From IMG/VR virus record IMGVR_UViG_2734482537_000006: 8,637 nucleotides of DNA; one strand, given 5' to 3'. Both the position numbers and the translations under genes were made by a program. The DNA is from a virus (Duplodnaviria; Heunggongvirae; Uroviricota; Caudoviricetes). The notes beneath the pieces are model-generated. The model saw nothing but the letters and a program-made list of their open reading frames with translations. It searched no databases and was not told the DNA's origin. This document shows positions 403-746 of the stretch, in pieces; the first letter of the stretch is position 1, and the number at the start of each line of letters is the position of its first letter.

Positions 403-431
403 TTGACTCTAAGAAAATTCCGATCTATTGT
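403..431 (+). promoter_or_regulatory. Candidate sigma70-type promoter (-35 TTGACT at 403..408, 17-nt spacer, -10 TATTGT at 426..431)
   Basis: Seen in sequence: near-consensus -35 hexamer, 17-bp spacer and a 4/6 -10 hexamer inside an AT-rich region, about 35 nt upstream of the small ORF at 466. AT-rich DNA yields such matches by chance. Confidence 0.25.
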
Positions 432-465
432 TAGGGTCATCAAAGTTACTTAACAGTATTCCGAA

Positions 466-567
466 ATGAAAATACAAAGCAAGCTAATTGTCTTATTAAA
501 CATTATTATTGCATTTATATTATTTGAGCTTTTAGCTCAAAAATTTGGTTTGAGTACATTATTTTAA
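466..567 (+). CDS. Hypothetical 33-aa hydrophobic peptide (MKIQSKLIVLLNIIIAFILFELLAQKFGLSTLF)
   Basis: Hand-translated ATG..TAA ORF, below the size cutoff of the ORF track. A single predicted hydrophobic helix, with a candidate promoter upstream and an intrinsic terminator downstream. No convincing Shine-Dalgarno sequence, and AT-rich DNA favours F/L/I codons, so it may be spurious. Confidence 0.2.
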   Translation: MKIQSKLIVLLNIIIAFILFELLAQKFGLSTLF

Positions 568-716
568 AGCAAGATAAACAATATCGGGCACTCTAGTTTT
601 TATAATTAACAATTAAACGTCCATAAAATGTTATTTACTTTTCTTCGCTATTGTCATATCTTAATATAGTGGCTTACGCCACTCTACTTTCATCACATTT
701 TGTACGTTTATGTACT

Positions 717-746
717 CGCCATGAAGCTCTTTCATGGCGATTTTTT
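717..746 (+). terminator. Rho-independent terminator, plus strand (9-bp stem CGCCATGAA / TTCATGGCG, 5-nt loop, then A+TTTTTT)
   Basis: Seen in sequence: perfect 9-bp inverted repeat at 717..725 and 731..739, followed by a T6 run at 741..746. The T-run is on the plus strand only, so it would stop plus-strand transcripts heading into the 3' end of tfa. Confidence 0.6.

What the first reader, a model, noticed from the sequence alone, without database searches (positions are those of the whole stretch)
403..746. Candidate small transcription unit in the AT-rich island: promoter, 33-codon hydrophobic ORF and a strong intrinsic terminator
On the plus strand there is a near-consensus -35 (TTGACT, 403..408) with 17-bp spacing to TATTGT, then an ATG..TAA ORF (466..567) encoding a single hydrophobic helix of 33 aa, then a 9-bp-stem terminator with a T6 run (717..746). 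The implied transcript is about 300 nt, convergent with tfa. The terminator is the strongest single element, since something on the plus strand is evidently meant to stop before running antisense into the tail genes. The arrangement resembles small membrane-peptide or type I toxin loci and small-RNA genes carried as prophage cargo. The ORF lacks a clear Shine-Dalgarno sequence and the composition is biased, so this is a hypothesis only.
Basis: inference. Interest (0 to 1): 0.45.

Follow-up and report, generated by a model that had tools for sequence, protein, structure and literature searches.

The report
Unannotated YncL-like membrane peptide prophage gene
The small unit beside the phage tail genes holds a real but never-annotated 33-codon gene for a one-helix membrane peptide, a distant relative of the E. 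coli stress peptide YncL, followed by an unusually conserved RNA tail and a terminator, and about 15% of complete E. coli genomes carry it in their prophages.

Summary
Taken alone, the promoter match and a 33-codon ORF are no better than chance. Comparison with other copies changes the picture. A copy only 81% identical keeps the ORF intact: 18 nucleotide changes give 5 amino-acid changes and dN/dS is 0.09. No random placement of those changes did as well (0 of 20,000), and every other ORF in the island is broken. All three peptide alleles hit NCBIfam YncL (E 1e-5 to 7e-5), below the curated cutoff. Seven composition-matched controls (one reversed, six shuffled) hit nothing. The promoter block is kept, and the 3' hairpin, linker and terminator are kept best of all. 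One genome lacks the whole unit (about 387-812).

My reading is a self-contained prophage cargo gene ("moron") for a YncL-like membrane peptide with an sRNA-like 3' UTR. The ORF has no Shine-Dalgarno sequence, no antisense partner was found, and transcription is not shown. The ORF region occurs in 826 of 5,426 complete E. coli genomes and carries no annotation in any copy listed. I file it as a new member of a known kind, of moderate interest.

The parts
403..431 (+). Sigma-70-like promoter candidate: -35 TTGACT (403-408), 17-bp spacer, -10 TATTGT (426-431). The predicted transcription start is about 438.
   Evidence: One search gives a 9/12 match, which is not above chance on its own. Block 399-437 is 82% identical to the divergent allele class, against 68% just upstream. 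TTGACT is kept and the -10 is TATCGT there. Function is inferred.
438..465 (+). Predicted 28-nt leader without a Shine-Dalgarno sequence, weakly structured.
   Evidence: The best anti-SD duplex dG is about 0 in both alleles, and the MFE of the -28..+35 segment is -2.3 and -3.0 kcal/mol.
466..567 (+). 33-codon gene for a single-helix membrane peptide, a YncL-like paralogue (MKIQSKLIVLLNIIIAFILFELLAQKFGLSTLF).
   Evidence: NCBIfam YncL hit at E 1.3e-5 and 25 bits, with a curated cutoff of 35. All three alleles hit while the reversed and shuffled controls do not. Against K-12 YncL: 11/28 identical, ungapped; score 60 versus shuffles 20 +/- 4, 0 of 5,000 reaching it. dN/dS is 0.04-0.09, and 0 of 20,000 random placements match.
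568..654 (+). Variable spacer within the 3' UTR.
   Evidence: It is 65% identical to the divergent class, with indels, and 36 of 87 sites vary.
668..683 (+). Conserved stem-loop (AGUGGC-UUAC-GCCACU).
   Evidence: Folds. The changes C673T and A681G keep pairing as G.U wobble.
684..715 (+). U-rich linker, mostly single-stranded, and the most conserved stretch of the unit. It is a candidate seed or Hfq-binding region.
   Evidence: Only 3 of 32 sites vary among 37 distinct copies. Block 664-746 is 93% identical between allele classes whose flanks are 65-68% identical.
716..746 (+). Intrinsic terminator: a 10-11-bp stem plus T6, effective on the plus strand only.
   Evidence: Three of 25 stem sites vary, and G726A turns a G.U pair into A-U. 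The divergent class has the tail CUUUCUU.
387..812 (.). Extent of the presence/absence module. One related prophage lacks exactly this stretch.
   Evidence: The L007 junction joins window ~386 to ~813 across a TTT microhomology.
833..1414 (-). Tail fibre assembly gene tfa, convergent with the unit (context).
   Evidence: Pfam Caudo_TAP, E 4.6e-44. RefSeq annotation of homologous loci agrees.
1..83 (.). End of an IS1 copy that cuts the island off from its normal left neighbours (context).
   Evidence: 100% identical to IS1 ends in thousands of plasmids. Intact copies continue into a different sequence at this point.

Best explanation
The unit is a self-contained prophage cargo gene (a 'moron') at the far end of the tail-fibre region of lambdoid E. 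coli prophages. It points towards tfa.

Proposed mechanism, step by step:
1. A sigma-70-type promoter (TTGACT-17-TATTGT) starts a transcript of about 309 nt near position 438. This step is inferred.
2. After a 28-nt leader with no Shine-Dalgarno sequence, the 33-codon ORF is translated. Selection at the protein level is shown; translation itself is inferred.
3. The product is a single-pass inner-membrane peptide: a helix at about residues 7-25, flanked by K2/K6 and K26.
4. The peptide is a distant paralogue of the chromosomal small stress protein YncL. [quoted passage not shown]
5. By analogy, the prophage copy would tune the lysogen's membrane energetics or stress state. This is inferred, and any benefit to the lysogen is speculative.
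6. The transcript ends at a strong plus-strand intrinsic terminator, which also keeps it from running antisense into the tail genes.
7. The last ~80 nt (hairpin, U-rich linker, terminator with a U tail) are the most conserved part of the whole unit. They probably act as an RNA element, either stabilising the mRNA or acting as a 3'-UTR-derived small RNA. This step is also inferred.
For: Coding signal:
- The allele with 81% nucleotide identity keeps an intact 33-codon ORF.
- 18 nucleotide differences give 5 amino-acid changes. dN/dS is 0.09 with dS about 1, and 0 of 20,000 random placements do as well.
- Variable sites by codon position 1/2/3 number 8/2/14.
- All other ORFs of at least 30 aa in the island are broken in divergent copies.

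Homology to YncL:
- The NCBIfam YncL hit has E 1.3e-5.
- All three alleles hit, while the reversed sequence and six shuffles do not.
- BLASTP against K-12 YncL gives 39% identity, ungapped from M1.
- The alignment score lies 10 sd above shuffles.
- The hydrophobic core sits at the same position as in YncL.

Unit architecture:
- The conserved islands are 399-567 and 655-746, with flanks at 65-68% identity.
- The terminator is plus-strand only.
- GC content is 29-34%, against 46-63% in the tail genes.
- One related prophage lacks the whole unit.
- The same unit sits downstream of tfa in prophages at three different chromosomal sites.

Precedent: the Salmonella yncL transcript was first catalogued as the sRNA STnc1110 (PMC5437024).
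Against: - No expression data of any kind was available, so the promoter, transcript ends and translation are all unshown.
- The promoter match alone is at chance level.
- There is no Shine-Dalgarno sequence in either allele.
- The YncL hit is below NCBIfam's curated cutoff: 22-25 bits against 35.
- Diversity is shallow. Only three main allele classes were found (four distinct intact peptide sequences), all from E. coli prophages. Nothing turned up in 185,579 species-representative genomes.
- The high identity of 664-746 could reflect a recombination tract rather than selection. L057 shows a crossover there.
- One copy has ATG changed to ATA, and one frameshift variant exists.
Confidence: 0.72

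Rival explanations
1. The ORF is real, but the site at 403 is not its promoter. The peptide would instead be expressed by read-through from upstream cargo, or from leftward early (pL/int-side) transcription. The terminator's main job would then be to stop that long transcript before it reaches the tail genes.
For: The promoter match is no better than chance. The plus strand here runs in the same direction as the integrase-side genes in intact copies. No plus-strand terminator-like site was found in window 84-465, the roughly 380 nt upstream of the ORF held in this window.
Against: Block 399-437 is better conserved than the DNA just upstream (82% against 68%), with the -35 intact. The unit is found behind quite different left neighbours: an AraC-type regulator on the other strand, sitD, an MFS gene, and ydfJ. 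The presence/absence module begins about 16 bp upstream of the -35.
Confidence: 0.15
2. It is a type I toxin-antitoxin locus. The hydrophobic peptide would be a membrane toxin held in check by an antisense small RNA.
For: The peptide is small, hydrophobic and has a single helix. It lacks a Shine-Dalgarno sequence, which could mean tightly limited translation. The relative YncL depolarises the membrane when produced (PMC12542507). The locus is prophage-borne.
Against: No conserved antisense promoter or terminator was found. No conserved direct or inverted repeat could supply mRNA-sRNA pairing: the only 12-nt inverted repeat (342-353 / 659-670) is not kept in the divergent class. The predicted leader is only 28 nt and is barely structured. 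There is no hit in PADLOC. YncL itself is described as sublethal, not as a toxin of a TA pair.
Confidence: 0.07
3. The functional product is only an RNA, namely a small RNA ending at 746. The ORF upstream would be incidental.
For: The 3' 80 nt are the best conserved part. They have the hairpin, U-rich linker and terminator layout of Hfq-binding sRNAs. All weak Rfam hits are to such sRNAs on this strand.
Against: The ORF shows a clear protein-level selection signature and homology to YncL. No good promoter lies directly upstream of 668: TTTACT-17-TATCTT is 8/12, and weaker still in the divergent class. No Rfam family reaches even half its gathering score.
Confidence: 0.05

Closest known systems
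YncL (E. coli K-12 b4598; NCBIfam NF000537), a 31-aa small inner-membrane stress protein. Its Salmonella orthologue lies in the transcript first named sRNA STnc1110.
   Same: The length matches (33 against 31 aa). Both have a single hydrophobic helix starting at residue 7. The alignment is ungapped from Met1 and shares M1, S5, [KR]6, V/I9-L10-[LI]11-N12, A16, L19-F20, L22 and [KR]26-F27-G28. Both are encoded on a short transcript of their own (PMC5437024).
   Different: Identity is only 35-39%, and the score is 22-25 bits against a family cutoff of 35 and 68.6 bits for true YncL. The gene sits in prophages next to tfa, not between patD and ortT. It has no Shine-Dalgarno sequence, while yncL has AAGGTGG. 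It carries a long 3' UTR with a conserved hairpin, linker and terminator. It was found only in E. coli prophages.
Morons of lambdoid phages (Juhala et al. 2000, as cited in PMC4104026): extra genes with their own promoter and terminator inserted between phage genes.
   Same: A promoter-like site and a strong terminator bracket a single small gene. The base composition is foreign (about 30% GC). The unit lies between tfa and the b-region or integration end. Presence and absence vary among related prophages.
   Different: The cargo is a 33-aa peptide rather than a normal-sized protein. Promoter activity in the lysogen has not been shown.
3'-UTR-derived Hfq-dependent sRNAs and the Hfq-binding module (a hairpin preceded by a U-rich stretch and followed by a poly-U tail; Ishikawa et al. 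2012, cited in PMC4104026).
   Same: The terminator hairpin has a U6 tail and a U-rich stretch directly upstream. There is an extra 5' hairpin and a very conserved unpaired linker, at the 3' end of an mRNA.
   Different: There is no evidence of processing, an internal promoter, Hfq binding or a target. No Rfam family matches. The divergent allele has an interrupted U tail (CUUUCUU).
Type I toxins of E. coli (Hok, Ldr, Ibs, TisB, ShoB, ZorO, DinQ).
   Same: The peptide is small and hydrophobic with a single helix, and it is likely to perturb the membrane.
   Different: No antisense or divergent sRNA partner and no long structured leader were found, and there is no family hit.

Membership tests
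YncL (NCBIfam NF000537, equivalog) | Score at or above the curated cutoff of 35 bits. | tested here: not met
   The three alleles score 25.0, 23.5 and 22.5 bits, while K-12 YncL scores 68.6. The peptide is therefore a homologue, not an equivalog.
YncL (NCBIfam NF000537, equivalog) | Significant, composition-independent sequence similarity over the whole peptide. | tested here: met
   E 1.3e-5 to 7.5e-5 over profile positions 1-28 of 30. The reversed sequence and six shuffles gave no hit. The ungapped score of 60 compares with a shuffle mean of 20, a maximum of 43, and 0 of 5,000 reaching it.
YncL (NCBIfam NF000537, equivalog) | About 30 aa with a single transmembrane helix flanked by basic residues. 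| tested here: met
   The best 19-aa hydropathy window starts at residue 7 in both proteins (2.54 against 2.15). K2/K6 and K26 correspond to R6 and R26.
YncL (NCBIfam NF000537, equivalog) | Chromosomal position between patD and ortT. | tested here: not met
   K-12 yncL lies between patD and ortT. This gene always lies downstream of a prophage tfa.
YncL (NCBIfam NF000537, equivalog) | Membrane depolarisation and stress-induced expression. | not testable with these tools
   These properties are known for YncL from PMC12542507. There are no data for this peptide.
Phage moron | Own terminator at the 3' end. | tested here: met
   Stem 716-740 plus T6, on the plus strand only, with z = -7.15, and conserved.
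Phage moron | Own promoter at the 5' end. | tested here: inconclusive
   The 9/12 match is at chance frequency. However, the block is conserved above its flank, and the unit occurs behind unrelated neighbours.
Phage moron | Composition distinct from neighbouring phage genes, and presence/absence among related phages. | tested here: met
   GC is 29-34% against 46-63%. L007 lacks 387-812. Only 4 of 50,697 phage records match, all at 98% identity or more.
Type I toxin-antitoxin | Antisense or divergent sRNA complementary to the toxin mRNA. | tested here: not met
   No conserved repeat or antisense promoter/terminator was found.
Type I toxin-antitoxin | Toxicity on expression. | not testable with these tools
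   This needs an induction experiment.
Hfq-dependent / 3'-UTR-derived sRNA | Terminator hairpin with a U tail, a U-rich stretch upstream, and a conserved unpaired seed. | tested here: met
   (3 of 32 linker sites vary). The U tail is interrupted in the divergent class.
Hfq-dependent / 3'-UTR-derived sRNA | A separate ~80-nt RNA species, Hfq binding and a target. | not testable with these tools
   No known Rfam family matches. The local candidate targets tried paired no better than shuffles.

The most novel reading that the evidence does not exclude
The unit is a dual-function prophage moron. One short transcript would deliver both a YncL-like membrane peptide and, from its extremely conserved last ~80 nt, a new Hfq-type 3'-UTR small RNA that regulates host (or rival phage) genes. 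On this reading a widespread, never-annotated element would reprogramme the physiology of about 15% of E. coli strains.
Probability: 0.25. Interest if true: 0.6.

Novelty: new member of a known kind. Interest (0 to 1): 0.42.

Why it matters
Small membrane proteins are routinely missed by gene finders. This one appears in 826 of 5,426 complete E. coli genomes, with up to 3 copies per genome. It carries no annotation in any copy listed (over 150 RefSeq and 4 phage records). It is nearly absent from a 15-billion-protein collection, which holds two exact or near-identical entries plus one frameshift variant.

It shows that the YncL family has a mobile, phage-borne branch. That gives a natural system for asking what such peptides do for a cell or a prophage: membrane energisation, stress tolerance or phage exclusion.

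The very conserved 3' RNA element is an untested candidate regulatory RNA. In practical terms, annotation pipelines could add this gene.

Tried and rejected
- Pfam, PHROGs and PADLOC searches with the peptide found nothing.
- A full phmmer search of 1.84 billion proteins found only the peptide itself and one frameshift variant.
- I looked for more divergent relatives in several collections. Viral contigs and metagenomes gave the same three or four alleles. Species-representative genomes held neither the ORF nor the 3' element. Deep covariation or phylogenetic tests were therefore impossible.
- L033 first looked like an independent use of the terminator. It turned out to be an IS1 insertion just upstream of it.
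- Rfam gave only sub-threshold hits to assorted Hfq sRNAs: VrrA 23 bits, MicC 22.8 and Esr41 15.6. These reflect generic architecture, not homology.
- The 12-nt inverted repeat (342-353 / 659-670) and the short direct repeats are not conserved, so I dropped them.
- Pairing of the conserved linker with the unit's own start region, K-12 yncL, and the tfa, stf and lom starts was no better than shuffles.
- An independent promoter for an ~80-nt RNA is weak: TTTACT-17-TATCTT is 8/12, and weaker still in the other allele.
- Text searches for the peptide and RNA sequences in papers gave nothing. The known EHEC prophage sRNAs lie at the PR' moron site, not here.
- The ORF 321-434, annotated as a CDS in phage PhiR70_1, is not conserved.

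Full report
**Setting.** The window is the tail end of a lambdoid prophage read on the minus strand. It holds J (5545-8601), lom (4875-5474), a side tail fibre gene (1414-4503) and tfa (833-1414), all confirmed by Pfam. To the left of tfa lies a 750-bp island of 29-34% GC with no long ORF. Window 1-83 is the end of an IS1 copy. In intact copies the island continues leftwards to an AraC-family regulator gene on the other strand, then IS remnants, then the integration end beside bioA/ybhB.

**The observation.**
- The promoter-like site is TTGACT-17-TATTGT at 403-431.
- The ATG..TAA ORF of 33 codons runs from 466 to 567.
- A plus-strand hairpin at 716-740 is followed by T6.
- The hairpin region folds far better than shuffles (z = -7.15). 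Only the plus strand has the T run.

From this sequence alone the rest is not above chance. The region has six promoter-like sites against 4.8 +/- 2.3 in shuffles. The window has 77 ORFs of at least 30 aa.

**Distribution.** The 174-bp core around the ORF occurs in 826 of 5,426 complete E. coli genomes. There are 932 copies, all chromosomal, and none of the copies listed carries an annotation. It also occurs in three sequenced lambdoid phages: mEp332, PhiR70_1 and ev099.

The unit always lies just downstream of tfa, but in prophages at different sites:
- the lambda attachment site by bioA;
- a Qin-like prophage by ydfJ;
- prophages carrying sitABCD.

Gene finders almost never call the ORF. In a 15-billion-protein collection the exact peptide appears twice, and one frameshift variant once.

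**The ORF is a real gene.** A divergent class of copies (L056, L058-L061) is 81% identical over the ORF. It keeps an intact 33-codon frame encoding MKIQSKLIILLNIIFALILFKLLAQKFGLYTLF.
- Against the window allele there are 18 nucleotide differences but only 5 amino-acid changes, mostly conservative.
- By the Nei-Gojobori method dN/dS is 0.09 with dS about 1.
- A third allele (A24D) gives 0.04-0.05.
- Placing the same 18 substitutions at random never gave 5 or fewer amino-acid changes in 20,000 trials.
- Across 37 distinct copies, variable sites fall 8/2/14 on codon positions 1/2/3. Thirty-six of the 37 copies keep the frame and the start codon.
- As a control, every other ORF of at least 30 aa in the island loses its start or gains stops or frameshifts in the divergent copies. 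That includes 321-434, which one phage record annotates as a CDS.

**What the peptide is.** NCBIfam matches it to YncL (NF000537) over positions 1-28 of 30, with E 1.3e-5 and 25 bits.
- The other two alleles also hit, at 23.5 and 22.5 bits.
- The reversed sequence and six shuffles hit nothing.
- BLASTP against K-12 YncL (MNVSSRTVVLINFFAAVGLFTLISMRFGWFI) gives 11/28 identities, ungapped from Met1.
- The ungapped score of 60 is 10 sd above composition-matched shuffles, and 0 of 5,000 reach it.
- The hydrophobic core starts at residue 7 in both proteins.

The score is below the curated cutoff of 35 bits, where true YncL scores 68.6. The gene is not at the yncL locus. It is therefore a divergent paralogue, not YncL itself.

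YncL is a validated 31-aa membrane protein. It is induced by heat shock and in minimal medium. Its production causes sublethal depolarisation, a phage-shock response and nucleoid condensation (PMC12542507), and it is an RseP substrate (PMC10470546). In Salmonella its short transcript was first listed as the sRNA STnc1110, and its expression depends on sigma-S (PMC5437024).

**The unit as a whole.** Identity between the window and the divergent class, segment by segment:

| Segment | Feature | Identity |
|---|---|---|
| 341-398 | upstream flank | 68% |
| 399-437 | promoter block | 82% |
| 466-567 | ORF | 80% |
| 568-654 | spacer, with indels | 65% |
| 664-746 | 3' RNA element | 93% |
| 747-832 | downstream flank | 66% |

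The -35 hexamer is unchanged and the -10 is TATCGT in the divergent class. Promoter plus ORF, and the 3' hairpin-linker-terminator, are thus two conserved islands in diverged DNA.

One related prophage (L007) lacks window ~387-812 exactly, with the junction at a TTT microhomology. The promoter-to-terminator stretch therefore behaves as one removable module.

Taken together, an own terminator, a promoter-like site, foreign composition and presence/absence variation match the definition of a phage moron.

**The 3' element.** Among 37 distinct copies, only 3 of 32 sites vary in the linker 684-715 and 3 of 25 in the terminator stem. That compares with 26 of 102 in the ORF and 36 of 87 in the spacer. 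The few changes in the two hairpins keep pairing: C673T and A681G give G.U, and G726A gives A-U.

The layout is a hairpin, a U-rich unpaired stretch and a terminator with a U tail. This is the layout of the Hfq-binding module, and every weak Rfam hit is to an Hfq-type sRNA on this strand. None comes near its threshold.

- I found no good separate promoter for an ~80-nt RNA.
- I found no convincing target among the local candidates.
- Part of the conservation could be a recombination tract, since L057 switches allele type inside this block.
- Six differences are nevertheless fixed between the classes, so the block is not a very recent copy.
- A role beyond termination is plausible but unproven.

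**Rivals.**
- A type I toxin-antitoxin reading lacks its defining partner. There is no conserved antisense promoter, terminator or complementary repeat, and the leader is short and unstructured.
- An RNA-only reading is contradicted by the coding signature.
- Expression by read-through rather than from the 403 promoter cannot be excluded without transcript data.

**Verdict.** The finding is a new, phage-borne member of the YncL small-membrane-protein family, packaged as a moron with an sRNA-like 3' UTR. It is widespread in E. coli and unannotated in every copy listed. Transcription, translation and function remain to be shown.

Noticed in passing
window 84-168; L004 4828-5085; L008 2828-3086: An 85-nt piece (three short hairpins, then GCACGC-T6) occurs on its own in well over 100 E. 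coli genomes beside other tail-fibre clusters, for example ST131 EC958 near zinT. In the two intact loci examined (L004 and L008), about 110 nt to its left lies a ~62-nt stretch that looks, from memory, like the 3' part of a tRNA-Ser gene in reverse. ARAGORN finds no whole tRNA there. It is probably a relic of an attachment site.
   Followed up: partly
L005 ~3900-4000; L056 2707-2806; L058 2868-2967 (left of the point that matches window ~255): In Qin-like and sit-type prophages the shared module is preceded by a ~100-nt remnant of a tfa 3' end, on the same strand as the intact tfa downstream. This gives a tandem tfa'-module-tfa arrangement and hints at past recombination between tail-fibre regions.
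   Followed up: partly
window 83/84; L033 (equivalent to window ~712); L056 3145-4523 (just after the ORF stop): Insertion sequences have hit this AT-rich island repeatedly: IS1 at the window's left edge, another IS1 just before the terminator in L033, and an IS3-family element right after the ORF stop in L056.
   Followed up: yes
window 873-1071 (-): A strong Rfam hit to 'IS009' (218 bits, gathering score 117) lies entirely inside the tfa coding sequence, so this catalogued RNA family overlaps a protein-coding gene.
   Followed up: no
window 270-353: A block upstream of the promoter is also fairly conserved (86% identity over 270-340 between allele classes, against 68% for 341-398). It has no intact ORF and no conserved hairpin, and its role is unknown, though it may be regulatory.
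   Followed up: partly
L002 2754-2867 (= window 321-434, +): The GenBank record of phage PhiR70_1 annotates this 37-codon ORF as a hypothetical protein. In divergent copies it loses its start and gains stops and a frameshift, so it is very likely not a gene. The real 33-codon gene next to it is not annotated.
   Followed up: yes
L004 3501-4244 (-), absent from the window because of the IS1 insertion: Intact copies of this prophage carry an AraC-family regulator gene about 1.1 kb to the left of the small unit. The two are separated by a long AT-rich non-coding stretch, and whether the regulator controls the small unit is unknown.
   Followed up: no
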